From UHGV virus genome UHGV-0213395: 43,313 nucleotides of DNA. One strand, written 5' to 3'. Under the pieces are notes generated by a model. The model saw only the letters and a program-made list of their open reading frames with translations, had not been told where the DNA came from and did not search any database. Position numbers and translations under genes: made by a program. This document shows positions 6,014 through 43,255 of this stretch, one piece after another; within the stretch, counting starts at the first letter, position 1, and every line of letters begins with the position of its first letter. Source of the DNA: a virus.

Positions 6014-6029
6014 CGATTATAGCTTAACC

Positions 6030-7079
6030 TTAAGCACCGACACCAGTTACCAGGAAGGCAATCGGTACGTGCTTGCGGTCAACCACACGGTTCCAGTTGG
6101 AGGCGTTCGCCAGGTCCTGCCAGGAAGCAGAACGTGCGACAGTCTTGGTGCCGTTACCGGTGATTACTGCGCTGGTGAAGCTGTAACCAAACGGATGTAG
6201 CAACCAGGTCTTACGGGTCCACAGGGTTTCAACGCCGCCGCCGTTGCCGCGGGACGCTTCGCGCTCGTATTCCAGCGGGTTGGACGGAGAACCTTCACCG
6301 TAACCGATAGCGCCGTTGCCGAAGATGATGGAGATGAACTTACGGGTCTGGCCAGTGCCGACTACGGTCATGCTGTCGTCAACAATCACGCGGTAGCCCT
6401 GGTAGGTGGCGAACATGGTGTTGTTGTCCGCGTCACGGATGAAGTCGATAAGCTGCTGCTTACGTGCCTGCGCATAAACGAAGCTATGCATCGCGATAGC
6501 CCCCAGCACTTCACCGCCGTTGCCCATCAGAGCATCGCCCATAGTCTGGGTAGCGTCGATGAACGCGCCCGCATCGAAGCCCAGAGTAGCAGACACGTCG
6601 ATAACCATGTCGTTCTGCTTGTGGTAAGCATCGGTAGCAGCTACGTTGTCGTTGTACAGACCGAGCGCGGTAGCAATCAGACGGCGTTGTGCCTGGCGCT
6701 GCCAGAAGTTATCCAGACGGGACGCTACGGATTGCAGCGGGTTCTGGCTGGTCAGTTCGACAGTCAAATCCGCCTGACCGAAACCTTCGTTCAGGTATGC
6801 AACGCGGGCCATCATCTCACCGGTCTGCACGTTACGCGGGGTGGCGATGTCCTGGTATACATCGTTCGAGTAGTTAGGCTCGATAGAGGTATCAATCGCT
6901 TTCCAGAACGGAATATTAGCGACGTTGGACGGGCCGCGGGCAATCTCGGCAGCGTACGGGGTCGGGGTCAGAATACCAGACTGGAAGAACGCGGTTTTTT
7001 CTACCGGGTCCTCGGTCATATAAGACGCCAGGACCGGGATGTTGCCAGTTACGATATCGCCGATAGTGGTAATTGCCAT
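6030..7079 (-). CDS. major capsid protein (349 aa)
   Basis: Follows scaffold gene by 2 nt; size and position typical of HK97-fold capsid; followed by a terminator-like hairpin. Confidence 0.65.
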   Translation of the reverse strand: MAITTIGDIVTGNIPVLASYMTEDPVEKTAFFQSGILTPTPYAAEIARGPSNVANIPFWKAIDTSIEPNYSNDVYQDIATPRNVQTGEMMARVAYLNEGFGQADLTVELTSQNPLQSVASRLDNFWQRQAQRRLIATALGLYNDNVAATDAYHKQNDMVIDVSATLGFDAGAFIDATQTMGDALMGNGGEVLGAIAMHSFVYAQARKQQLIDFIRDADNNTMFATYQGYRVIVDDSMTVVGTGQTRKFISIIFGNGAIGYGEGSPSNPLEYEREASRGNGGGVETLWTRKTWLLHPFGYSFTSAVITGNGTKTVARSASWQDLANASNWNRVVDRKHVPIAFLVTGVGA

Positions 7080-7783: not shown

Positions 7784-7865
7784 AGTCAGTATGTCCCCTG
7801 GACGTTGGAATCCGGGCCACCCGGATTTACATGTCAAGAATAAATTATTCCAACATGCAAGGCAA

Positions 7866-8129
7866 CTATTCCAGAATATTCCTCACGTAATCCTGCAACA
7901 TGAACACTTTCAGTCTCAGTTGCCGTACGCATTCAGCATTCTGAACGTCGACGGCCAAATCCTCATCAGCGTCGCTACTTGGCTGCGCCAGTTTGCACGG
8001 CGGCTGCATCATCGTCGTATCCGGGGATGGAATTGGCGTTGGCGACGGCGCGGGACTTGAGCTGCACGCGCTCAGGGTCAAAAGTGCACACGCTGCGACC
8101 AGGCGTTTTAATGTACTTAACGACTTCAC
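7866..8129 (-). CDS. o-spanin (Rz1-like outer-membrane lipoprotein, 87 aa)
   Basis: Signal peptide with lipobox LSAC, Pro-rich mature region; starts inside the i-spanin gene in another frame. Confidence 0.55.
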   Translation of the reverse strand: MKSLSTLKRLVAACALLTLSACSSSPAPSPTPIPSPDTTMMQPPCKLAQPSSDADEDLAVDVQNAECVRQLRLKVFMLQDYVRNILE

Positions 8130-8361
8130 GGGTAATCACCTCTGATTTCGTCTTGCCTTCGTTGTCAGCGGCGGCGGCCTTCGATTCATCCTGCTGCTGC
8201 CGTTGTGTTTTCTTCGCTAACTCAGCCTGTGCTTTCTGCTGTTGCTGCGAAACGAGATTAGCCCGGCCTTCGTTCCATCCGCTGCGATACTGGTAGATGC
8301 CGTGTGCGTAAACCAGGATGATGAAACATGCTCCTGCTACGACAGTTGCTTTAAGATTCAT
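7975..8361 (-). CDS. i-spanin (Rz-like, 128 aa)
   Basis: N-terminal transmembrane segment then charged coiled-coil region; overlapped arrangement with o-spanin ORF. Confidence 0.6.
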   Translation of the reverse strand: MNLKATVVAGACFIILVYAHGIYQYRSGWNEGRANLVSQQQQKAQAELAKKTQRQQQDESKAAAADNEGKTKSEVITREVVKYIKTPGRSVCTFDPERVQLKSRAVANANSIPGYDDDAAAVQTGAAK

Positions 8362-8680
8362 GTTTCCCCTTTCTCGATAAGTAAAGCCCCGCCATAAAGC
8401 GGGGCGCTAGTCCTTATCATTTAAACATAGAAACGGCGTAATCTCAGTAAACCAGTTACTTTTTACACAAGCAATAGAGTATGGCCCTTCCGAACGCGTC
8501 AGCGTAACTACACTCAGGACTTACGTCCCGCTCCGTTACCTGCCCGCGCCGCGGTCGCTTGTTCATACTTCACAAGCTCAGGTGGAGCTTATCATATTTT
8601 TAGTGAAAAGTCAACTATTCGAATAGTTTATTCCAACATTTACAATTCGGAGGAATAACTGGAATACGTAAATAAATAGT

Positions 8681-8709
8681 TTGCACACCCCAATATAATA
8701 GGGTACTAT
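8681..8709 (+). promoter_or_regulatory. sigma70-type promoter TTGCAC-N17-TACTAT (conserved early promoter, copy 1)
   Basis: Near-identical ~33 bp to copies at 42872-42900 (+), 20239-20267 (-) and 19065-19093 (-); AGGAGG SD and ATG at 8737 downstream. Confidence 0.55.
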
Positions 8710-8736
8710 TCAGTTAACTTAAACAGGAGGTGAAAA

Positions 8737-8940
8737 ATGTATGCAATTTGCGAAGTAGTTCAAGAGTTCGATGAAGAGTTCGACGGTGACTTGTGCCGGG
8801 TTAAAAAGGTTCTGCAGGTTTTCCCTGACGCAATGTCTGCTTACAAGGCATTAGATATATTTGAACCTGGAAGATACGGGGATTATGACACTGTTCTGAG
8901 GGTTGTCCATGAGCAGGATTTAAACACAAGATTCCGTTGA
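8737..8940 (+). CDS. small acidic protein (67 aa), moron-like antisense gene
   Basis: Own promoter and AGGAGG SD; terminator at 8946-8966; antisense to head operon; lower GC than flanks. Confidence 0.6.
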   Translation: MYAICEVVQEFDEEFDGDLCRVKKVLQVFPDAMSAYKALDIFEPGRYGDYDTVLRVVHEQDLNTRFR

Positions 8941-8945
8941 AAACT

Positions 8946-8966
8946 AAGGCCCCATAATGGGGCCTT
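8946..8966. terminator. bidirectional terminator (AAGGCCCC-ATAAT-GGGGCCTT)
   Basis: Perfect 8-bp stem followed by TTTAT; between convergent ORF ends at 8940 and 8970. Confidence 0.7.
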
Positions 8967-8969
8967 TTA

Positions 8970-9431
8970 TCATTCTGGCTTAGTAACCTTCGCCGCTTTG
9001 CTTACCGCCTCTACTCCATCGGCATCAGTAACTTTAACGAAGTATTCGCCGACCGCATTAACCGTCAGAGACAGAGCCTCCTCAGGCGCATTCACCACTT
9101 CCTTACCGTCTTTGTACCAGGTCAGAGAATACGGCGCTTTGCCTGCCTTAACCTCGACAGTGATGGTTGCGCTGCCGCCCGCCAGTTCAGCGTCCTGCGG
9201 TTGCGCAGAGAAATACACGTCGCCAGCGTCCGCCAGATACGGAATTTCATAAAGCATACCAGCGGCGGGCAACGCAATACCGGTTTTATCTGCAAACGGC
9301 ATATCATCTACCGGTGTACCGAGTACACTTTCGTCCTCAATAAATACCACGTTCTCGCCAGAGCCAGACACGCGGGCGTACTGGACTACGCGACGAGACG
9401 GTACGTCAGTTACTTTGAAAAAGCCCATCAT
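8970..9431 (-). CDS. Ig-like domain protein (153 aa)
   Basis: C-terminal APYSLTWYKDGKEV...GEYFVKVTDADG Ig-like signature, paralogous to the domain in 5308..5658. Confidence 0.55.
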   Translation of the reverse strand: MMGFFKVTDVPSRRVVQYARVSGSGENVVFIEDESVLGTPVDDMPFADKTGIALPAAGMLYEIPYLADAGDVYFSAQPQDAELAGGSATITVEVKAGKAPYSLTWYKDGKEVVNAPEEALSLTVNAVGEYFVKVTDADGVEAVSKAAKVTKPE

Positions 9432-10507
9432 TATTCCCCTTTCAGATAATCAGCAACACGTTTATCGAGTTCCGCCATCTGCTTAAGCGTGAGCGGATTC
9501 CCGAAACCATCTACAGATATTACGCGAAACTCTTCCGGCGATATACCGCTGTTACGGAAAATCTTACCTCGCACCGGGCCGAGCGCCTGGTCCTGAAACC
9601 ACGCCGGTTGTTGTTTAAGGAACTCGTAGTAAGTGGTGTCTGCGCTTACCTGAGTGCCACCTTCCGCGCCTTTAGCCGCGCGTTTTGCGCCTTTATCGAG
9701 GAAGTCGAACTCGGAACTGATTACCGGAGCCGTGCACGACCGGCAGTTCGGATGGGCTGGGGGCATCGGCCCCTTACCAATTTCCCACGTCATCCCGTCT
9801 CTGACCCTGCAAATTGTACTGGTGCGGCTGTCAAGCGTTGACACCCACTCGTACTTCTCGATGATGTCGTCGTTCTGGCGGTACGTCTCGTTACGGGCCT
9901 CGTTGGATACGTGGGACAGCGCGGTGCGGATTACCGTAGTCGCGTTACGTTCTGAGATGTCGGCTAGTCCACCAGCGCCAACAACATTCTTAACAATCTG
10001 CCGTGTGGTTTGACCTTGCACAAAGCCCATCTTAACTCCAGTTACAAGACGTGCTACTTCCGTTTCGCCCCATCCAGACATCAGCTTGGTGAAATCAACG
10101 GGCTTGTCGCTCAATGATAATGGTTGAAACTCGGCAGCGGCCCATACCTGCTCAGCGGTAGGCGTAACAAATTCCGCGTTTACGTTGGCGGTCAGTGTCT
10201 TTACGTTCCACTCCGCCTCATACGCCGCCAGTTCCTTAAGGTCTTCTGTCAGCTTTGTTTGCCAGTCACCCGTAAGCCCCGTCAGAGCTTCTTCAAGGTC
10301 ACGTAACAGTTTATTCAGCCGTGCGGTGCTGCGGCCGTCGTCGCCGAATAGCAGCACCTGCCGTTTGATTTCGTCCCGCATTTCCTGAATGAATGGTGCG
10401 AGGTCTTTTACTTCACCGGATGCGGCGCGTTGCAGCCAAATCTGGTGGCTGATTAGTGATGTCAGTAAGCTCATAGATAAACCCTGTGGCGCTAAAGTTA
10501 ATAGCAT
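9431..10507 (-). CDS. head morphogenesis (minor head) protein candidate (358 aa)
   Basis: Gene directly after portal, the usual place for SPP1 gp7/Mu F-type proteins. Positional call. Confidence 0.55.
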   Translation of the reverse strand: MLLTLAPQGLSMSLLTSLISHQIWLQRAASGEVKDLAPFIQEMRDEIKRQVLLFGDDGRSTARLNKLLRDLEEALTGLTGDWQTKLTEDLKELAAYEAEWNVKTLTANVNAEFVTPTAEQVWAAAEFQPLSLSDKPVDFTKLMSGWGETEVARLVTGVKMGFVQGQTTRQIVKNVVGAGGLADISERNATTVIRTALSHVSNEARNETYRQNDDIIEKYEWVSTLDSRTSTICRVRDGMTWEIGKGPMPPAHPNCRSCTAPVISSEFDFLDKGAKRAAKGAEGGTQVSADTTYYEFLKQQPAWFQDQALGPVRGKIFRNSGISPEEFRVISVDGFGNPLTLKQMAELDKRVADYLKGE

Positions 10508-10543
10508 ACTATAAGAAAGCCCCTTTCGGGGCTATAGGTGAAC

Positions 10544-12025
10544 TTACTGCTGAGTGGTGTCCTGTTGCTGCGCCGACTGCGGAATCTCTCCCGCTACCTG
10601 AGCAACAGAACCCAACGGCAGAGGTGCGTCTTCAATAGCGTTCTGAATGTCCTCATCTGTCCAGTCAGTCACACCTGCCTTGCGCAACGCAGCATAGTAA
10701 GCGGTGGCGGGTAGCAGGCCAGCGTTAATATCCGCCATCCACTGAGCGCGGTCCTGAGCTGTCATAGGTTGCAGGAAGAATTCCATATTCAGCTTGAACT
10801 CAATCTCAGTATCTTCACTAAGCCCAAGCATACCCGCAACCCAGCGCAACGCATCGGTATACGCCATGCTTACATTACGTGCTATTGTTGCCATGACTGA
10901 CGTGTCGGCGCCGCGTTGCAGGCGGGCCGATTCCGCGGTGATTTGCTGCGTCGGGGTGATAAGCTGCGCGCCAATCTGGATGGCCTGATTCTCTTTATCC
11001 AGCATATTCTGCTTGGCAAGGTTATTCTCCCCCGCCTGGACAAGAAACGCATTACCTCCGTAACCGATGTTATGGCCTGAGCGCGACCCCATGCGCACAC
11101 CGTGAGGGTTGGCCTCTTTCCACTGTTCCATGCTCATGTTCTCGCCGGGGGCGATAAACAGCGTGGGCTGGCCTACAACGAAGCTCGACTCCTCATTGTC
11201 CGCGCTGTTGCGGAAATGCCCGATATTAAGCTCAGCCAACGGCAGCAAAGGAGCATCGTCGATGGTCGCATCGTTGTTGCTTGCGCCAATGAATGTGAAC
11301 GGGATTTTGCCGCGTAACTGTTCGCCAAGTTCCGGGAAGATTTCGATTACTTCATCCTGTGCGCCACCTTCGGCATCGAAGCGGTAGATGCGCTGGCGGT
11401 AGCGACCGTCAATCAGGTCAAGGACGCGGTATTGCTCGCCGAATTTTGTTTCAAACTCAGCGCCTGGTTCCGAGTATTCCCATGCCTCACGCAATACAAC
11501 CATCGTCACGCGGTTCACTGAACCGATGCGGGTGAGTCTCCAGTTGATAATGTTCTCCGCGGTATAGAATGCGATTACCGGGTTTAATAATCCCGCGTTC
11601 TGCTCTGCCGCCGTTGCTGCGGCTGTTTCCGGGGCGTCCACCAGCAACCCGCCACGGCCTATCGAGTTAATCTCCATCAGCGTATCCTGCGCGTGCTGCC
11701 ACAGCCCGACACCTGAACCGTCAGCGTTGTGCAACAGGTACTCAAGTTCAGGCGGGATAATCTGCTCAGGGTCTTTGCGCATCACTGACCCCGTCATCCC
11801 CGCCAGCGTGCGTTTGGTGAAATTGTAGCAGATAGCGCCGTTCTCGTATTCTTCCTGTCGCTGTGCTGCGTAGGTCTGGTCAGGCTCGTTCTTCCCGACG
11901 TTGCGCAGATAGCGGATAAGGTCGCCTTCAAGAGCGTGGCGTACCTTCTGCCATTTATCGAAGTGATGCAGCCATTCCCGGTGTTTTGTCTTAACACCCT
12001 GATTCTGACCGTTCATAGTTAACAT
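10544..12025 (-). CDS. portal protein (493 aa)
   Basis: Large ORF immediately downstream of large terminase; size and position typical. Confidence 0.65.
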   Translation of the reverse strand: MLTMNGQNQGVKTKHREWLHHFDKWQKVRHALEGDLIRYLRNVGKNEPDQTYAAQRQEEYENGAICYNFTKRTLAGMTGSVMRKDPEQIIPPELEYLLHNADGSGVGLWQHAQDTLMEINSIGRGGLLVDAPETAAATAAEQNAGLLNPVIAFYTAENIINWRLTRIGSVNRVTMVVLREAWEYSEPGAEFETKFGEQYRVLDLIDGRYRQRIYRFDAEGGAQDEVIEIFPELGEQLRGKIPFTFIGASNNDATIDDAPLLPLAELNIGHFRNSADNEESSFVVGQPTLFIAPGENMSMEQWKEANPHGVRMGSRSGHNIGYGGNAFLVQAGENNLAKQNMLDKENQAIQIGAQLITPTQQITAESARLQRGADTSVMATIARNVSMAYTDALRWVAGMLGLSEDTEIEFKLNMEFFLQPMTAQDRAQWMADINAGLLPATAYYAALRKAGVTDWTDEDIQNAIEDAPLPLGSVAQVAGEIPQSAQQQDTTQQ

Positions 12026-12037
12026 TGAATAATCCTC

Positions 12038-13309
12038 TTAAAGTGCGAAAGTCACCGGGACGTTAATAACTGGTTTGCGAATCGGCATTTCATACGCGAT
12101 AGGGTATGTGGTTCCATCATTCTGGTGGTCCACACCGCCTGATTTATCCGGTTCGCCGTTCTTGTCGTAAGCCTGTTGCTCCAGGCATCGTGCGGTAACA
12201 GGGCAAGCCTGTTCATTAATCATGACCATACCAGATTCAAGCGCCTTATTCATCGCCGCTACGCGGTCTTTAACCGGTGGGTTTGTCGATTTAGCGCGCA
12301 CTTCGAAGCCGGCCTGCTGTAACTGGGCAATATCAGATGTGCTGGCGTTGTTACTTTTACGGTTTTTACCGCTTGCGTCGGGGTACATAACGATATAGTG
12401 GCCCTTACTTTTCCAGCGCTCTGTTACGGCTCTCACCACATCGGGCGTATCGAACATATCCACCAACTCGGCGACTGCATGCCAGACTTTGCCACGTTGC
12501 ACGTAAACTGTACTAGCCATGTGGCCTACGTTAAAGTCCTGCCCGATATACAGAGTCTCGCCTGGTTTTATTGTTTCGCGGCTGCTGTTTTTCCTGCGGT
12601 CATAGGCGTAATAGACAGTCCCCGCCGTCAGGTTGACGAACTCGCCGTTGATGTAGGCGTCAATCAACTGACCTGGGTATGTGTCGCGTAACGACTGCAC
12701 ATAATCTTCTGGCAGGAACGGGTTAGACAGGGTGGACGCCTGAATCATCTCGTAGCCTGGATTCTTTTTGACTACCCAGCGGTCATGTACGAAACGGAAT
12801 CCTTCCGGGGTAGTGAACACGGAAACGGTATTAGCAGGTTTCGGTGTAATAGGTTTATATGTCCGCGGCAACTGGCGGTTACGGGCGATGACTTTGTTCC
12901 ACGCGTGCTCGGCGTGCTCCATGTTAAGGGTGTCCAACTCGTCGATTTTCGCACGAAACGATTCGTAGCCAACGATTCGTGCTGGATTATCAAGTGTACG
13001 CAGAACAAAATCCCCAAATTGTCCGGAAGACGTATAGATTATGTTGTCAGACTTGTTGTATTTGTACCGGATACCCCAGTCGGTGAGCTTTTCTTCCATA
13101 CGCGGTGCAAGGATGAGGCGCACCAGGTCATAAGTCGGCTCATACATGGCGATGATAGAATCGCTACCACCTTCCATGCTGTCGAGTAGTGCAGAGTTGC
13201 ACATAACTTCGGATTTACCCGTACCGAAGCCAGCTACGAATGCCGGAAACTTGCAATGCATACCGAGAAACGCGCCTTGCGGCTCCGTTGCCGTGATATT
13301 AACGTTCAC
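12038..13309 (-). CDS. terminase large subunit (423 aa)
   Basis: N-terminal Walker A-like GFGTGKSE; overlaps small terminase ORF; precedes portal. Confidence 0.75.
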   Translation of the reverse strand: MNVNITATEPQGAFLGMHCKFPAFVAGFGTGKSEVMCNSALLDSMEGGSDSIIAMYEPTYDLVRLILAPRMEEKLTDWGIRYKYNKSDNIIYTSSGQFGDFVLRTLDNPARIVGYESFRAKIDELDTLNMEHAEHAWNKVIARNRQLPRTYKPITPKPANTVSVFTTPEGFRFVHDRWVVKKNPGYEMIQASTLSNPFLPEDYVQSLRDTYPGQLIDAYINGEFVNLTAGTVYYAYDRRKNSSRETIKPGETLYIGQDFNVGHMASTVYVQRGKVWHAVAELVDMFDTPDVVRAVTERWKSKGHYIVMYPDASGKNRKSNNASTSDIAQLQQAGFEVRAKSTNPPVKDRVAAMNKALESGMVMINEQACPVTARCLEQQAYDKNGEPDKSGGVDHQNDGTTYPIAYEMPIRKPVINVPVTFAL

Positions 13310-13808
13310 CGGACACCACCTTAATTGTTACTTCGCTGATTGGCTCGTCGCGTACTTCTTCGGCGACAACTGTTTTATTCAGGCCCAGTTTCGCGGCAGC
13401 AAACGTAGCAGAGATGCCCGCGGCCCCCGTTTCAGTGAAGTATGCCTCTTCCAGCGCCTGTGCTGTCTCCCAGGCTTCTGCAAATGCGGGAATCTCACGC
13501 AGCCAAAGCTTAATAATCGGGATAGTGACTCCGATGTGTAAGGCGAAGCGGGCCAGTGACGGTGGTTTATCCTGAATCAGCGGGCGTTCGTCACCCTTAG
13601 ACGTAGGCACAAGCTCCCACGACGTGCGGTCGAAGAACTCGATTAGTGCATCGCAATAGCCCGGGTCCCACAACGCGGCGGAATTACGGGATGATTGATA
13701 AAGGCTCTGTCTACCGCGCGGTCGTTTACGGCGACGGTTTGCGCTAACAGCTTCTTCATGTGCAGCTTGTACCACCTCTGGCGATGGCTGCTTAAGTTTC
13801 AGCTTCAT
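13299..13808 (-). CDS. terminase small subunit candidate (169 aa)
   Basis: Start moved to ATG at 13808 (AAGGGGA SD); basic N-terminal region; first gene of the structural operon. Confidence 0.5.
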   Translation of the reverse strand: MKLKLKQPSPEVVQAAHEEAVSANRRRKRPRGRQSLYQSSRNSAALWDPGYCDALIEFFDRTSWELVPTSKGDERPLIQDKPPSLARFALHIGVTIPIIKLWLREIPAFAEAWETAQALEEAYFTETGAAGISATFAAAKLGLNKTVVAEEVRDEPISEVTIKVVSGER

Positions 13809-13874
13809 AGAATCCCCTTGCATATGCGTCTGACCATCAGAGCGCACCAGACGCGCCCTACGCGTCTAAAGGGA

Positions 13875-13903
13875 TTATATAAGGGGATTGGGCGGGATGT
13901 ACA
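13875..13903 (-). promoter_or_regulatory. candidate promoter for the structural operon (TGTACA-N17-TATAAT on minus strand)
   Basis: Consensus -10 TATAAT (rc of 13875-13880) with 17-nt spacer to a -35-like hexamer; lies between the early terminator and terS; palindrome AGACGCG-CCCTA-CGCGTCT (13849-13867) in the leader. Confidence 0.35.
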
Positions 13904-13907
13904 GAAA

Positions 13908-13925
13908 AGCCCTCCGTAGAGGGCT
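13908..13925 (-). terminator. terminator of leftward early transcription unit
   Basis: AGCCCTC-CGTA-GAGGGCT stem followed on the minus strand by TTTCTGT. Confidence 0.5.
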
Positions 13926-17223: not shown

Positions 17224-17517
17224 TTATTTATGACGCCAGATGTATTGTCGTCTCTGCGGTTTAGTCGGAATATCATCGTACCCCAGCGATTTCCAGTAAT
17301 TAAATAGCCGGTTCGCGATAGCTGCGCGTTCCTTTGTTTTAAACTCTCCTAGATTCACGGCCTTTCCGTTCTGGAATCCACAGGCGCGGATAGCTTTACG
17401 CCGTTCTTGTATCTCTGGGTACAGCGCGTTACGGCGGCGCTTGTGTATACGTGTCTTCGCTCTCGGTGACAGCGGCGCAAGGCCGCTTCGTTTCAGGATG
17501 TCAGTTGCTAACGACAT
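17224..17517 (-). CDS. hypothetical basic protein (97 aa)
   Basis: Start moved to ATG at 17517, 1 nt past the stop of the upstream paralog gene. Confidence 0.45.
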   Translation of the reverse strand: MSLATDILKRSGLAPLSPRAKTRIHKRRRNALYPEIQERRKAIRACGFQNGKAVNLGEFKTKERAAIANRLFNYWKSLGYDDIPTKPQRRQYIWRHK

Positions 17518-17786
17518 CACTCCACCCCTTCCACATGTGTAACTGACCCACAGTTCGCGCACTCGACGTAATCAGGGTACTGGTCTTTGTATTTCTGTAG
17601 CTCGGCGTTTACTTCTGCCAGTCTCGACACAAGCCCTTCTATTTCCTTGTCGTCGTCGGCTAGACGTTCCTGGTAATAGTCGTCCAGTTCCTTATAGCTG
17701 TCGTACTCTACATAATCGCCGTATGCGTACTCAGCCATCTCAGGCTCTGGCAGGCCCCACGCTTTTACCTCATATCTCTGTACCAT
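17517..17786 (-). CDS. small protein, tandem paralog B (89 aa)
   Basis: Starts MVQRY, ends ELQKYKDQYPDYVECANCGSVTHVEGVE; C-terminus identical to neighbour A. Confidence 0.5.
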   Translation of the reverse strand: MVQRYEVKAWGLPEPEMAEYAYGDYVEYDSYKELDDYYQERLADDDKEIEGLVSRLAEVNAELQKYKDQYPDYVECANCGSVTHVEGVE

Positions 17787-17989
17787 TACTCCACCCCCTC
17801 CACATGTGTAACCGACCCGCAGTTCGCGCACTCGACGTAATCCGGGAACTGGTCCTTGTATTTCTGTAACTCGGCTTCAACTTCCAACAGCTTTAGGTCA
17901 AGATTCTGGTAGTCCTCAAACTTAACCCACTTCCCGTGGCGGTCAATGAAATGGTTGTCGGACCCATACTTAGAATATCTCTGTACCAT
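17786..17989 (-). CDS. small protein, tandem paralog A (67 aa)
   Basis: Start moved to internal ATG (MVQRYSKYG...); ends ELQKYKDQFPDYVECANCGSVTHVEGVE. Confidence 0.45.
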   Translation of the reverse strand: MVQRYSKYGSDNHFIDRHGKWVKFEDYQNLDLKLLEVEAELQKYKDQFPDYVECANCGSVTHVEGVE

Positions 17990-19033: not shown

Positions 19034-19064
19034 ATTCTGTCTCTCCTCTCGTTTGTGTAAATGA

Positions 19065-19093
19065 ATAGTAGCCTATTCTATATTAGTGTGCAA
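19065..19093 (-). promoter_or_regulatory. conserved early promoter, copy 3 (TTGCAC-N17-TACTAT, minus strand)
   Basis: rc reads CTTGCACACTAATATAGAATAGGCTACTATTCA; same architecture as the other copies. Confidence 0.5.
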
Positions 19094-19170
19094 GTAAATT
19101 TTATTGGTGTTTGTATTGTTGCGTCTCCTGCAATAGTCGCTTCGATTGTTGCGTTTGGTGAAATAGAACA

Positions 19171-20204: not shown

Positions 20205-20238
20205 AACCCTCACTCCTCTGTCTCGTTTCGATAAGTGA

Positions 20239-20267
20239 ATAGTATCCTATTATGTTGGGGTGTGCAA
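20239..20267 (-). promoter_or_regulatory. conserved early promoter, copy 4 (TTGCAC-N17-TACTAT, minus strand)
   Basis: rc reads CTTGCACACCCCAACATAATAGGATACTATTCA, differing at about 2 positions from the plus-strand copies. Confidence 0.55.
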
Positions 20268-20626
20268 GAGAATAGTTACGTTGCCGTTGTGATTCTTTCG
20301 AAACTGTTGTGCCTTTATTCTTATTACTTGGTAACTAAAGGGCAGGCCCTAAGCCTGCCCAATAATCGTTACATTTTTACGGTTGCGAATCTACGGCACA
20401 TTAAGAAACAGTAGATATTTCAGCGGGTTACTTCTTTAAATGAGATTTAGATACACTTATCCTTAAACCACAAGGCAAGCATCTCAGCTGTCTGGGAGGG
20501 GTTGACGAATCCCTCGGGGAGGGTTCGTCAACTCCGTAATATATACAAGTCCCAAAACCATTATACAAACATGTGTCAAGAACTTTCAATAACTTTTTTG
20601 TAAAGATTAAATATTGCAGGGATTGG

Positions 20627-23818: not shown

Positions 23819-23882
23819 GTCAATTACTCCTTAGTCAGTTGATATGTGAATAGTACCATATTAATTATTTTAGAAAAGCCCA

Positions 23883-27274: not shown

Positions 27275-27293
27275 TATCTGAATCAATTTAACT

Positions 27294-27316
27294 AAGGCCC
27301 TTCATTGGGCCTTTTT
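27294..27316 (+). terminator. rho-independent terminator
   Basis: AAGGCCC-TTCATT-GGGCCTT followed by TTT. Confidence 0.6.
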
Positions 27317-27333
27317 ACTAAGGGTCGAAAATC

Positions 27334-32868: not shown

Positions 32869-32872
32869 AGAA

Positions 32873-32893
32873 AAGGCCCCATTATGGGGCCTT
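32873..32893. terminator. bidirectional terminator (AAGGCCCC-ATTAT-GGGGCCTT)
   Basis: Perfect 8-bp stem between convergent helicase-operon and tailspike gene ends; T-rich on both sides. Confidence 0.7.
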
Positions 32894-32897
32894 AGTT

Positions 32898-37409: not shown

Positions 37410-37765
37410 AATTCAATCTCCGTGTACGTGTCTCTGAGATCCGCCAGCCTGTCAAGCCGTACCTGACGGGACGCAAGCTCGCAATGGCTCACCATCCCGT
37501 CGAAGTAAACTCCTGCGTGCCACACGATACGACCGCCGCGGCGATACCCCATAAGCACCGCACAGAAGTTTTCAGGCTTATCAATTTTTGTAAGTCCCTT
37601 CGTGTTGCGATGTCCTTCGTCGAACGCTTCGTTAATCGCCGTTGGGCTTGCAACGTCGAACGCCGGGGTTTCTAACCCGGCATCGGCCCGTACAATGCGA
37701 ACGTGATGCCAGCAATTGCGCTTGCGAAAGTCGTAAGGTATGCCCGTGTAGTCGTTAATATTCAT
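37400..37765 (-). CDS. NlpC/P60-family tail assembly protein (lambda K-like, 121 aa)
   Basis: Cys-His-containing NCWHHV ... HAGVY arrangement; position between L-like and J-like genes. Confidence 0.55.
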   Translation of the reverse strand: MNINDYTGIPYDFRKRNCWHHVRIVRADAGLETPAFDVASPTAINEAFDEGHRNTKGLTKIDKPENFCAVLMGYRRGGRIVWHAGVYFDGMVSHCELASRQVRLDRLADLRDTYTEIEFWR

Positions 37766-38277
37766 GTGGTCAACAGGCCGCGTAATAACGGTATCTCTTT
37801 AGGTGTCATCAGTATACCAGTGCTTCGCTGGTTCAGCATAGGTGTACCAACATCCGCGGAGAACTCGCCCTTCTCCTGGTTGATGGCCTGCAACTCATAC
37901 ATGACAGGACCGTCAGCCGGATAAGACAGGTCTGTGCTGACGTAACGACGGAAGACGAACTTCGGCAACTCGGTGTTACTCATAGGGATTTTATCCATCT
38001 CATCGTCAAGTTGATTGAGAATATCCGGTAAAGTAAACGTAGTCGTCTGGTCCATATCACTGTTGTTAGCCGCCCCCGACGCCTCCATCGGGGTTGGCTC
38101 GAACGTGATAATTTCGCCTGTCTCCAGTGTTGCCGTGAGTTCCTGTAGCCCACGAACAAGATAGTACGTCTTTGACAACAACGGGTGGCTGATTTGCAAC
38201 GTGATGTAGTCCATCTCGCCGTCGGGATTTGAGGCCAGCTTACGGCGATAGGCGGCTTCTACAGATTCCTGGCTCAT
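37762..38277 (-). CDS. minor tail protein (lambda L-like position, 171 aa)
   Basis: Position in tail-tip cluster; overlapping stop/start with neighbours. Confidence 0.45.
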   Translation of the reverse strand: MSQESVEAAYRRKLASNPDGEMDYITLQISHPLLSKTYYLVRGLQELTATLETGEIITFEPTPMEASGAANNSDMDQTTTFTLPDILNQLDDEMDKIPMSNTELPKFVFRRYVSTDLSYPADGPVMYELQAINQEKGEFSADVGTPMLNQRSTGILMTPKEIPLLRGLLTT

Positions 38278-42871: not shown

Positions 42872-42900
42872 TTGCACACCCCAATATAATAGGGTACTAT
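42872..42900 (+). promoter_or_regulatory. conserved early promoter, copy 2 (TTGCAC-N17-TACTAT)
   Basis: Identical over ~33 bp to the copy at 8681-8709; GAGG SD and ATG 42929 downstream. Confidence 0.55.
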
Positions 42901-42928
42901 TCACATGTAACTTACTGAGGAAATAATT

Positions 42929-43255
42929 ATGCGTAAATTAGTACTAGCTCTGGGTTTTATGTCTTTTGCTACTTTTGGGGCCCCGTGCGAACAGGTATTT
43001 AGTGAATCTGTTCTTATGACTTCTGGTGTGCTTGATAAAGCCGACCCTACTATTGTAAAGGCATTTAAGGACTCCACAGTCCGTGAATGCGAGGCCGCCG
43101 TAGATGTCGGTAAATCGGGCCTACCTCCGCAAGCCGTAACATACACGGTAATACGTTCGGTAGAGAAAACCGGAGACGCGTTTTACAGCCTTCTGACAGC
43201 CACCCGTCTGCAAATGGTAATGACTGGATGGGCAATAGGCGCAGAAAGTAAATAG
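42929..43255 (+). CDS. small secreted/periplasmic protein (108 aa, signal peptide)
   Basis: MRKLVLALGFMSFATFGA then PCEQ: cleavable signal peptide without lipobox; two Cys in the mature part; lower GC than flanks. Confidence 0.6.
   Translation: MRKLVLALGFMSFATFGAPCEQVFSESVLMTSGVLDKADPTIVKAFKDSTVRECEAAVDVGKSGLPPQAVTYTVIRSVEKTGDAFYSLLTATRLQMVMTGWAIGAESK

What the first reader, a model, noticed from the sequence alone, without database searches (positions are those of the whole stretch)
8362..8736. 375-bp non-coding island inside the late operon with a perfect 16-bp palindrome
No convincing ORF is present. It contains a GC hairpin (8384-8407) just upstream of the spanin SD, the perfect palindrome AACTATTCGAATAGTT (8613-8628, related to the operator half-site GAATAGT), one TTATTCCAACAT repeat and the conserved early promoter. 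Dense regulatory content inside a structural operon suggests a control hub, possibly a late promoter or packaging-related site, or a small RNA.
Basis: seen in the sequence. Interest (0 to 1): 0.45.

Follow-up and report, generated by a model that had tools for sequence, protein, structure and literature searches.

The report
Late-operon promoter with structured leader RNA
The "island" is the conserved control region in front of the main structural genes of a Kagunavirus phage: a promoter that makes a folded ~200-base RNA of a family not described before. Next to it sits an inserted accessory-gene cassette with its own early-type promoter.

Summary
The window is a Kagunavirus (Guernseyvirinae) whose late genes lie on the minus strand. 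Comparison with about 50 relatives splits the island in two. Bases 8673-8736, together with orf67 and its terminator, form a variable accessory cassette driven by the repeated early-type promoter. Bases 8362-8672 form a core conserved across Kagunavirus and Jerseyvirus. Read on the minus strand, the core holds an array of GAATA/TATTC half-sites and a predicted extended -10 sigma-70 promoter (TTGACT-17-TGnTAAGCT). The promoter would make a ~200-nt RNA that ends in a GC hairpin 24 nt before the spanin start. Among Kagunavirus-type relatives the RNA is more conserved than the flanking genes. It folds into a 5' hairpin plus a long three-part hairpin, supported by compensatory changes and conserved G-U pairs. 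It matches no Rfam family and has no conserved ORF. In phage Golestan and two metagenomic contigs, the promoter and 5' domain occur a second time at the head of the early operon. My best reading is a regulated internal promoter with a cis-acting leader RNA. Terminator read-through in the manner of HK022 put is the most likely action, but nothing has been measured. A trans-acting sRNA and a stability or processing leader remain open.

The parts
8946..8966 (.). Bidirectional GC hairpin terminator. It ends the Hoc-like gene on the minus strand and orf67 on the plus strand.
   Evidence: 9-pair stem, tail TTATCATT on the plus strand. The same hairpin type recurs at 1369-1388, 27290-27317 and 32869-32896. 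Relatives without the cassette keep a terminator here.
8737..8940 (+). orf67, the 67-aa accessory ('moron') cargo gene of the variable cassette. Its function is unknown.
   Evidence: It has no Pfam family and only a weak match to PHROG 27256. In relatives it is replaced by at least 10 other cargo ORFs, or is absent.
8681..8712 (+). Early-type promoter and operator of the cassette. TTGCAC (8681-8686), 17 nt, TACTAT (8704-8709), with the operator dyad AATAGGGTACTATT at 8697-8710.
   Evidence: There is an exact copy at 42872-42903 and near copies at 20236-20267(-) and 19062-19096(-). A related TTGACA-type family lies at 23839, 23883, 26566 and 30264. The same motif was reported as a repeated 'phage promoter' in fBC-Eco01 (PMC9825357).
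8652..8667 (-). Two abutting 9-bp direct repeats, (T/G)TATTCCAG-TTATTCCTC, at about -74 to -88 from the predicted start site.
   Evidence: TTATTCCAGTTATTCC is nearly invariant across the Kagunavirus-type and Jerseyvirus-type sequences; only scattered single-base variants occur. The window has G at the first position.
8621..8633 (.). Dyad GAATA-N3-TATTC, centred at about -48. It is the dyad conserved in both genera.
   Evidence: Kagunavirus has GAATAAACTATTC and Jersey has GAATACTTTATTC. Each genome holds only two exact copies, and the second is upstream of the scaffold gene (window 7838-7850, Jersey 8012-8024). With up to one mismatch there are 7 hits against 1.0 expected.
8613..8628 (.). Perfect 16-bp palindrome AACTATTCGAATAGTT, centred at -41.5. 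It overlaps the -35 hexamer by 2 bp.
   Evidence: It is almost invariant in Kaguna-type sequences and degenerate in Jersey-type (ACTTTATTCAAAAAGT).
8586..8614 (-). Predicted sigma-70 extended -10 promoter. TTGACT (8614-8609), 17-nt spacer, TG (8594-8593), TAAGCT (8591-8586).
   Evidence: The sequence shows it directly. TGnTA(A/C)GCT is invariant in both genera and in the second copies. The second copies share homology starting exactly at the -35 hexamer. The simple scanner did not flag it because the -10 matches only 3 of 6 positions (T, A and final T). There is no experimental 5' end.
8483..8579 (-). 5' domain of the RNA, nt 1-97. It holds P0 (8577-8572 with 8562-8557), P1 (8554-8545 with 8498-8490), P2 (8542-8535 with 8508-8500), P3 (8530-8525 with 8520-8515, GUAA loop), an invariant internal loop G-AG/AG-GUA, and a tail CGGAAGGGCC.
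   Evidence: In isolation the minimum-energy fold equals this structure (-38.3 kcal/mol, z -2.76; Jersey -43.7, z -3.37; the complementary strand only -26.9). For covariation.
8406..8482 (-). 3' domain of the RNA. It is less structured but carries conserved blocks: CUAUUGCUU and AGAUU(A)CGCCGU.
   Evidence: Helix P4 occurs only in Kaguna-type sequences and shows no covariation. This part is replaced by other sequence in the second copies.
8377..8405 (-). Terminator-like hairpin (stem 8405-8386) plus tail UUUACUUAU. The stem ends 24 nt upstream of the spanin ATG at 8361.
   Evidence: The stem covaries: C-G to G-C in 10 sequences, and to U-A or A-U in single sequences. The Jersey tail is UUAGCGUAU, which is a weak U-tract.
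7975..8376 (-). Shine-Dalgarno sequence (GAGAAAGGGGAAAC, 8375-8362) and the i-spanin gene. This is the first gene of the downstream block: spanins, scaffold, major capsid protein, then connector and tail genes.

Best explanation
The island holds two things. (A) Bases 8673-8736 are the promoter and operator of an inserted accessory-gene cassette (orf67, plus strand). (B) Bases 8362-8672, read on the minus (late) strand, are the conserved control region of the main structural-gene block. An array of GAATA/TATTC half-sites (two direct repeats, a dyad at about -48 and, in Kagunavirus, the 16-bp palindrome at -41.5 overlapping the -35) probably binds a regulator that times a strong extended -10 sigma-70 promoter. 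That promoter transcribes a ~200-nt leader. Its 5' domain is a hairpin starting at about +3, followed by a long bulged hairpin with invariant unpaired bases. The leader ends in a GC hairpin directly in front of the spanin ribosome-binding site. I propose that the leader acts in cis on the polymerase that made it, letting it pass this hairpin and the further intrinsic terminators of the long late operon. That is the logic of HK022 put, but with an unrelated RNA. The anatomy, conservation, RNA-level structure, strand and second copies are shown. The start site, promoter activity, regulator binding and the antitermination step are all inferred.
For: The core is conserved in both genera, while the cassette is variable or absent. 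The RNA stretch is 97.6% identical among Kaguna-type relatives, against 92% and 88% for the neighbouring genes. In the structure test, 94.4% of cells pair against 32-41% for slid controls. The covariation score is 0.219 against 0.085 for shuffles (0 of 500 reach it), and 13 pairs change on both sides, spread over P0, P1, P2, P3 and the terminator stem. MAFFT plus RNAalifold independently recover P1, P3 and the terminator. The G-U pairs in P1 are conserved, and the late-sense strand folds 11 kcal/mol better than its complement. The promoter elements are invariant. The module from -35 to about +108 is duplicated as a unit at the head of the early operon in phage Golestan and in contigs L076 and L092, without the upstream sites. 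This parallels putL and putR, which sit behind PL and PR (PMC9378689). The late strand carries several intrinsic terminators: after the portal gene at 10533, after Hoc at 8966, in the island at 8405, after the capsid gene at 6014, and at 1388. No sigma-70-like promoter is visible ahead of the tail genes. No Q- or N-like antiterminator is annotated in Bas74, Jersey or Golestan, nor found among ten small proteins scanned.
Against: There is no transcript mapping, and the one Kagunavirus RNA-seq paper reports genes only. The -10 hexamer matches the consensus at only 3 of 6 positions. The covariation rests on few independent lineages: the two genera, the L018, L029 and L009 variants, and the paralogous copies. 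The alignment used for the counts was fitted to the structure. The covariance model finds nothing in HK022, so there is no homology to put. The hairpin has a poor U-tract in Jersey-type phages and in the second copies, so there may be little termination to overcome. Conserved blocks in the 3' domain are not explained by this model.
Confidence: 0.42

Rival explanations
1. The unit is a stand-alone small RNA gene with its own promoter and terminator. The RNA acts in trans on host or phage targets, or sequesters a protein. Late genes downstream are transcribed by other means.
For: The anatomy is promoter, ~200 nt, then a terminator-like hairpin. The promoter plus 5' domain is portable and occurs in one or two copies per genome. 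Conservation is very high.
Against: Complementarity to either phage genome does not exceed chance-level 10-11-mers, and no target is shared between Kagunavirus and Jersey. The U-tract is weak in Jersey-type phages and in the second copies, which predicts substantial read-through. In every context the RNA sits directly upstream of, and in the same direction as, a long operon. No other promoter is available for the most highly needed genes, scaffold and capsid.
Confidence: 0.2
2. The RNA is a cis-acting leader that works after or during transcription by another route. Candidates are a 5'-terminal stabiliser hairpin, an RNase III processing site in the long bulged hairpin, or a ligand- or protein-sensing attenuator (riboswitch-like) that uses the 3' hairpin as its expression platform.
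For: P0 begins about 2 nt from the predicted 5' end, the classic position for a protective 5' stem-loop. The P1-P3 hairpin, about 22 bp with internal loops, resembles phage RNase III substrates (from my own knowledge; not tested). The invariant unpaired bases are typical of a binding pocket. In both genera the 5' arm of P1 (GCGGCG, or GCGGUG in Jersey) can alternatively pair with the conserved CGCCGU block in the 3' domain. The full-length minimum-energy fold uses that alternative.
Against: No clear terminator/antiterminator competition is conserved between the genera. The second copies keep only the 5' domain, with unrelated 3' parts. That argues the 5' domain works without a fixed expression platform. 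There are no Rfam matches.
Confidence: 0.22
3. The region functions mainly as DNA: a pac or terminase-binding site, a replication origin (promoter plus iteron-like 9-mers), or simply an operator cluster. On this view the RNA fold is incidental.
For: There are two abutting 9-mers with a third in inverted orientation, two overlapping dyads, and AT-rich DNA (30% GC over 8601-8700). A second dyad lies 780 bp away. The phage has a T7-like replisome, and in such phages a transcript can prime replication (from my own knowledge).
Against: Compensatory substitutions and conserved G-U pairs are strand-specific RNA signatures. The cumulative GC skew has its minimum at 20224 and shows no inflection at the island. 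The second copies lack all the upstream repeats yet keep the transcribed part.
Confidence: 0.06
4. The island encodes a small protein, either the 36-aa ORF 8456-8566(-) annotated in Bas74 and KMB35 or the 64-aa ORF annotated in Jersey.
For: Several GenBank records annotate a hypothetical protein here.
Against: The ORFs differ between the genera. They are broken by 1-nt indels within each group, and the Kaguna ORF has no start in Jersey-type sequences. The substitution pattern follows base pairs rather than codons.
Confidence: 0.02

Closest known systems
HK022 put RNAs (putL, putR): cis-acting, protein-independent processive antiterminators
   Same: In both cases the RNA is made immediately downstream of a sigma-70 promoter. 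Both have two stem-loops with bulges and internal loops, and the first starts at about +3. Both sit at the head of long operons that contain terminators. Some Guernseyvirinae genomes carry two copies at the heads of two operons. No dedicated antiterminator protein is evident (PMC9378689).
   Different: There is no sequence or profile similarity; the covariance model finds nothing in HK022. The 5' domain is about 95-108 nt, against about 70 nt for put. The host phage is a virulent siphovirus, not a lambdoid one. The canonical copy heads the structural genes, not the early genes. Antitermination activity and dependence on the beta-prime zinc-binding domain are untested.
Lambda PR'-6S RNA-tR' late control with Q antiterminator
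   Same: Both have a promoter, then a short non-coding transcript of about 200 nt (194 nt in lambda), then a terminator, and then lysis genes followed by head and tail genes in one long operon. The lambda details come from my own knowledge; the anatomy here comes.
   Different: No Q-like gene is annotated or found. The candidate protein sites lie upstream of or over the -35, not between -35 and -10. No conserved -10-like pause element follows the start site. Lambda 6S RNA is not known to need a conserved fold, whereas this RNA shows covariation.
Other RNA antiterminators: Tn916 canT, B. subtilis EAR, pLS20 conAn2
   Same: These are structured leader RNAs that let polymerase read through internal terminators of long operons in mobile elements (PMC11658703).
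   Different: They are unrelated in sequence, occur in Gram-positive hosts, and differ in size. This is an analogy only.
Repeated early promoter-operator of Guernseyvirinae (tgAATAGTa-ccTATTat-T)
   Same: The block at 8681-8712 is a member of this repeated motif family, which was noted for fBC-Eco01 (PMC9825357).
   Different: That paper assigned the motif to a phage RNA polymerase using the PHIRE tool. These phages show no annotated RNA polymerase. The motif reads as a sigma-70 promoter with an embedded operator. It belongs to the inserted cassette, not to the conserved core.

Membership tests
Sigma-70 extended -10 promoter | -35 hexamer close to TTGACA, 17 +/- 1 bp spacer, TG at -15/-14, and a -10 hexamer with T-12, A-11 and T-7 | tested here: met
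   TTGACT, then 17 nt, then TGaTAAGCT at 8614-8586(-). TGnTA(A/C)GCT is invariant in both genera and in the second copies. Activity has not been measured.
Intrinsic (Rho-independent) terminator | GC-rich stem-loop followed directly by a U-tract | tested here: inconclusive
   The Kaguna type has an 8-bp stem (7 G-C, -17.9 kcal/mol) and the tail UUUACUUAU, and the scanner flags it. The Jersey type has an equally strong stem but the tail UUAGCGUAU. The hairpins of the second copies lack an adjacent U-tract.
HK022 put RNA family | Homology to putL or putR in sequence and structure | tested here: not met
   Covariance model R1 gives no hit with E-value up to 1 in the HK022 genome. No Rfam family matches.
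HK022 put RNA family | Promoter-proximal two-stem RNA at the head of an operon | tested here: met
   P0 plus the P1-P3 hairpin start at about +3 of the predicted transcript. The copies sit at the heads of the late and early operons. The start site is predicted, not mapped.
HK022 put RNA family | Suppresses terminators in cis without protein factors, through the RNA polymerase beta-prime zinc-binding domain | not testable with these tools
   This needs reporter assays and rpoC mutants.
Lambda Q-type late control | Q-family antiterminator gene present | tested here: not met
   None is annotated in Bas74, Jersey or Golestan. Ten small regulator candidates gave only HTH_3, HTH_17 and NinH-like matches. 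Not every ORF was scanned.
Lambda Q-type late control | Promoter, then a ~200-nt terminated RNA, directly upstream of the lysis and morphogenesis genes | tested here: met
   This is anatomy only.
Any Rfam family or tRNA | Covariance-model match at or near the gathering score; ARAGORN hit | tested here: not met
   No hits at gathering thresholds. The best sub-threshold hits score 11-21 bits against thresholds of 35-160. There are no tRNAs.
Transcriptional riboswitch or attenuator | Conserved aptamer plus mutually exclusive terminator and antiterminator pairings conserved across homologues | tested here: inconclusive
   An aptamer-like 5' domain is present. One alternative pairing (the P1 5' arm with CGCCGU) is possible in both genera, but no conserved antiterminator was found for the 3' hairpin.
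Guernseyvirinae early promoter-operator repeat | TTGCAC or TTGACA at -35, with the AATAG-N4-CTATT dyad overlapping the spacer or -10, upstream of a gene on the same strand | tested here: met
   8681-8712 is identical to 42872-42903. It is followed by the Shine-Dalgarno sequence and ATG of orf67.

The most novel reading that the evidence does not exclude
Guernseyvirinae phages carry a previously unrecognised class of protein-independent, cis-acting RNA antiterminator. It is unrelated in sequence to HK022 put. It is placed behind a dedicated promoter at the head of the structural operon and, in about a quarter of genomes, also at the head of the early operon. Polymerases that start at these promoters would become terminator-resistant, and this would set the temporal programme of a virulent phage that has no RNA polymerase, sigma factor, N or Q of its own.
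Probability: 0.3. Interest if true: 0.8.

Novelty: new variant of a known kind. Interest (0 to 1): 0.58.

Why it matters
Guernseyvirinae (Kagunavirus, Jerseyvirus, Cornellvirus) are common E. coli and Salmonella phages and are widely proposed for therapy and food safety. How they time and boost late gene expression is unknown. I found no annotated RNA polymerase or antiterminator in them. This locus is the best candidate for that switch. It is a compact regulated promoter plus a structured RNA module that is more conserved than the genes around it and is portable between operon heads. If the RNA modifies polymerase in cis, it would be only the second phage example after put, and a simple part for synthetic biology. 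If it acts in trans, it is a new conserved phage sRNA. The adjacent insertion hotspot also marks where these phages swap accessory genes, for example a DNA methylase.

Tried and rejected
- **tRNA or tmRNA:** none found. The tRNA-Ser annotated in two Jerseyvirus records overlaps the end of the Hoc gene and its terminator on the opposite strand, so it is probably spurious.
- **Known RNA families:** nothing in Rfam at gathering or relaxed thresholds, for either the Kaguna or the Jersey version.
- **Protein coding:** the annotated small ORFs are not conserved.
- **Plus-strand promoter:** the TTCACA-18-CATATT site the scanner flagged at 8569-8598 is not conserved in Jersey-type sequences.
- **Trans targets:** only chance-level 10-11-mer complementarity within the Kagunavirus and Jersey genomes. 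A fuller duplex scan timed out.
- **Replication origin:** the GC-skew minimum is at 20224, not at the island.
- **Homology to put:** no covariance-model hit in HK022.
- **Wider distribution:**
  - The strict motif scan of viral contigs returned almost only Guernseyvirinae, plus one chance hit inside a coding region, L097.
  - The looser scan of metagenomes returned mostly chance matches in GC-rich DNA; 2 of the 80 loci checked were true.
  - GTDB genomes gave only a 738-bp Jersey-type scaffold, probably contamination.
- **Literature:**
  - No transcript-level data exist for this locus.
  - The K1B4 RNA-seq paper works at gene level and gives no expression table.
  - The MB78 record X87092 covers the locus without annotating it, and no MB78 papers were retrievable.
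- **Same protein as the early operator:** rejected as unlikely. The early operator is unchanged between the genera while the palindrome changes, and the half-site spacing differs.

Full report
**Context.** The window is almost a whole genome of a Kagunavirus (Guernseyvirinae). It is 99.8-99.9% identical across this region to Escherichia phages vB-Eco-KMB35 and Bas74. The packaging, head, connector and tail genes lie on the minus strand. Reading that strand, the order is portal (10544-12025), head morphogenesis (9431-10507), Hoc-like decoration (8970-9431), the island, i-spanin (7975-8361), o-spanin, scaffold, and major capsid protein (6030-7079). The only plus-strand gene nearby is a 67-codon ORF at 8737-8940.

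**Checking the observation.**
- The palindrome AACTATTCGAATAGTT is at 8613-8628 and is the only perfect 16-bp palindrome in the window, where 0.66 are expected by chance.
- The GC hairpin has its stem at 8386-8405. It is terminator-like on the minus strand only.
- The 12-mer TTATTCCAACAT occurs twice.
- The 32-nt block at 8681-8712 recurs exactly at 42872-42903 and nearly exactly at 20236-20267(-).
- There are no tRNAs and no Rfam families.

**The island is two things.** I fetched 48 related loci through the spanin protein and measured the interval from the Hoc stop to the spanin start.
- The interval is 317 nt in Jersey-type phages and about 342 nt in many Kagunaviruses. It is 608 nt in the window and reaches 1117 nt elsewhere.
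- The alignment shows that the last ~310 nt (window 8362 to about 8672) are shared by all. Everything between the Hoc terminator and that core is an insertion.
- In the window the insertion consists of the early-type promoter (8681-8712), orf67, and the bidirectional terminator at 8946-8966.
- Other relatives carry at least ten different opposite-strand cargo ORFs at the same spot, all behind the same promoter. One is an N6/N4 DNA methylase.
- The 'conserved early promoter' therefore belongs to an accessory-gene hotspot, not to the conserved element.

**The core read on the late strand.** From upstream to downstream it contains the following.
- Two abutting repeats, TTATTCCAG-TTATTCCTC, nearly invariant in both genera.
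- A conserved TGTAAAT.
- A dyad GAATA-N3-TATTC at 8621-8633.
- The Kagunavirus-specific palindrome, overlapping the dyad.
- TTGACT (8614-8609), a 17-nt spacer, and TGaTAAGCT (8594-8586).
- About 200 nt of RNA-like sequence.
- The hairpin GCCCCGCU-UUAU-GGCGGGGC with tail UUUACUUAU.
- 24 nt later, the spanin ATG behind a strong Shine-Dalgarno sequence.

The promoter elements fit an extended -10 sigma-70 promoter. TGnTA(A/C)GCT is invariant in every homologue. With the start site taken as about 8579, the palindrome is centred at -41.5 and the dyad at about -48.

**The sites upstream of the promoter.**
- The same exact dyad occurs only once more in the genome, at 7838-7850 between the o-spanin and scaffold genes. 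The position is equivalent in phage Jersey.
- The early promoters use a different dyad, AATAG-N4-CTATT. It is the same in Kagunavirus and Jersey, whereas the palindrome is not.

**The transcribed part behaves as a structured RNA.**
- *Conservation.* Among 36 Kaguna-type loci the 218 nt upstream of the spanin start average 97.6% identity. The spanin gene averages 92.3% and the Hoc-like gene 87.7%.
- *Fold.* In isolation, nt 1-97 fold as P0 (a 6-bp hairpin starting at nt 3) followed two bases later by a long hairpin made of P1, P2 and P3. This minimum-energy structure takes 42% of the ensemble (-38.3 kcal/mol, z -2.76). The Jersey version has the same architecture despite about 60% identity (z -3.37). 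The complementary strand folds 11 kcal/mol worse.
- *Independent recovery.* RNAalifold on an unfitted MAFFT alignment recovers P1, P3 and the 3' hairpin, with compensatory changes.
- *Pair counts.* I built a covariance model (R1) and re-aligned 40 distinct homologues.
  - 94.4% of cells pair, against 32-41% when partners are slid by 1-3 columns.
  - The covariation score is 0.219 against 0.085 for shuffles (0 of 500 reach it).
  - 13 pairs change on both sides, distributed over P0 (3), P1/P2 (5), P3 (3) and the 3' hairpin (2).
- *Strand.* The two G-U pairs in P1 are conserved in 38 of 40 sequences. Several changes are G-U to G-C transitions. These are RNA-type, strand-specific signatures.
- *Unpaired bases.* The invariant unpaired bases are the internal loop G-AG/AG-GUA, the tail CGGAAGGGCC, CUAUUG, and AGAUU(A)CGCCGU.
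- *Caveats.* The alignment was fitted to the model. The structure was derived from these same sequences. The independent lineages are few.
- *Coding.* The small ORFs annotated here in some records are not conserved.

**A portable module.**
- In two metagenomic contigs (L076, L092) and in the cultured phage Golestan, the covariance model finds a second copy.
- Homology to the window begins exactly at the -35 hexamer and ends at about +108. The second copy therefore comprises the promoter and the 5' domain. It lacks both the upstream GAATA/TATTC sites and the 3' domain.
- It lies in the divergent early control region, upstream of and co-directional with the early operon. A different hairpin and then the early promoter follow it.
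- The Golestan copy has diverged, with a new compensated P3.
- In the BLAST survey, 214 records gave 266 matching places. Roughly a quarter of genomes may therefore carry two copies. I verified this only in the three cases above.
- In the window that slot holds a different promoter, ~200-nt non-coding stretch and terminator. Jersey has an analogous unit.

**Distribution.** Motif scans of viral contigs, metagenomes and GTDB genomes, filtered with the model, found the RNA only in Guernseyvirinae-type sequence.

**How it most likely works.**
- The late strand carries intrinsic terminators after the portal gene (10533), after Hoc (8966), in the island (8405), after the capsid gene (6014) and at 1388. 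I see no sigma-70-like promoter ahead of the tail genes.
- I found no annotated RNA polymerase, Q or N in three annotated genomes. The only DNA-binding proteins I found are a Cro-like HTH_3, an HTH_17 and a NinH-like protein.
- The scaffold and capsid genes need the highest expression and sit directly behind this unit.
- I therefore read the core as the regulated main promoter of the structural block, with a cis-acting leader.
- The combination of features matches the logic of HK022 put as described in PMC9378689:
  - a two-stem bulged RNA starting at about +3;
  - a position at operon heads;
  - optional second copies;
  - terminators downstream;
  - no antiterminator protein.
- The model finds no homology to put. 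This would be an analogue, not a member.
- The upstream sites overlap the -35 of an intrinsically good promoter. That suggests repression until late times, but class II activation cannot be excluded.

**Alternatives.**
- *Stand-alone trans-acting sRNA.* This is possible. I found no complementarity above chance in either phage genome. The U-tract is weak in Jersey-type phages and in the second copies, which predicts read-through.
- *Post-transcriptional leader.* A 5' stabiliser, an RNase III site or a riboswitch-like attenuator is plausible. The 5' arm of P1 can pair alternatively with the conserved CGCCGU block in both genera.
- *DNA-only roles.* A pac site or an origin is unlikely for the transcribed part, given the RNA-type covariation and the flat GC skew there. 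These roles remain possible for the repeat array.

**Verdict.** The anatomy is well supported: an accessory cassette beside a conserved late-strand promoter, a structured RNA and a hairpin. The mechanism is inferred. The RNA family appears to be undescribed: it is absent from Rfam, and none of the papers I retrieved mentions it.

Noticed in passing
window 8673-8969; L003-L049, upstream of about position 2190: There is an accessory-gene insertion hotspot between the Hoc terminator and the conserved core. At least 10 different opposite-strand cargo ORFs occur here in relatives, all behind the same early-type promoter. They include a lipoprotein-like 114-aa ORF, a 173-aa ORF, small membrane proteins, a 242-246-aa N6/N4 DNA methylase and a 179-aa ORF. 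Many relatives have no insert.
   Followed up: partly
window 7809-7850 (minus strand): A second exact GAATA-N3-TATTC dyad lies at 7838-7850, between the o-spanin stop and the scaffold start. A conserved hairpin AAUCCGGG-UGG-CCCGGAUU follows at 7827-7809, and it changes compensatorily in Jersey and Cornell types (ACACCGGG...CCCGGUGU). This may be a second regulatory site for the same factor.
   Followed up: partly
L226 (Golestan) 37600-37776; L076 1575-1718; L092 11300-11476: A second, diverged copy of the promoter plus RNA 5' domain sits at the head of the early operon. In Golestan it is followed by a (CTCA)6 tetranucleotide repeat and the hairpin GGUGCC-UUCG-GGCACC.
   Followed up: partly
window 20339-20590 (minus strand): The window has another non-coding unit just upstream of the early promoter. 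It has a TTGAAA-N18-TATAAT-like promoter, a long inverted repeat GUUGACGAACCCUCCCCGAGGGAUUCGUCAAC, and the terminator GGGCAGGC-UUAG-GGCCUGCCC-UUUAGUU. It occupies the slot that holds the second RNA copy in other phages. Jersey has an analogous promoter plus ~300-nt leader (L101 38860-39230).
   Followed up: no
window 42872-42903 to 1392: A second opposite-strand block interrupts the late operon. It comprises ORFs 42929-43255, 7-1137 and 1134-1364. In Bas74 the corresponding block (12045-13788) is annotated as a hypothetical protein, a DNA repair exonuclease, a superinfection immunity protein and a further hypothetical protein. It is driven by an identical copy of the early-type promoter and ends at a bidirectional terminator (1369-1388).
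   Followed up: no
window 13874-13925 (minus strand): A terminator (AAGCCCTC-TACG-GAGGGCTTTTC) is followed immediately by a TGTACA-18-TATAAT promoter-like site just upstream of the small terminase gene. Together with the other terminators, this suggests the long leftward unit is divided into modules bounded by terminators.
   Followed up: no
window 17515-17615 and 17784-17884: A 101-nt direct repeat (89% identical) lies within the two adjacent genes annotated as holins in Bas74. This indicates a tandem holin duplication.
   Followed up: no
L099 (Salmonella phage MB78, X87092.1) 744-1060; L100 572-649: The 1990s MB78 record covers this locus. It annotates a ribosomal frameshift in the downstream scaffold gene (p26/p28) but nothing in the island. 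Two Jerseyvirus records annotate a tRNA-Ser across the end of the Hoc gene and its terminator on the opposite strand. ARAGORN finds no tRNA in the window; the Jersey-type sequences themselves were not scanned.
   Followed up: partly
window 20224: The cumulative GC-skew minimum falls in the divergent early control region. This fits the switch in transcription direction and possibly the replication origin.
   Followed up: no
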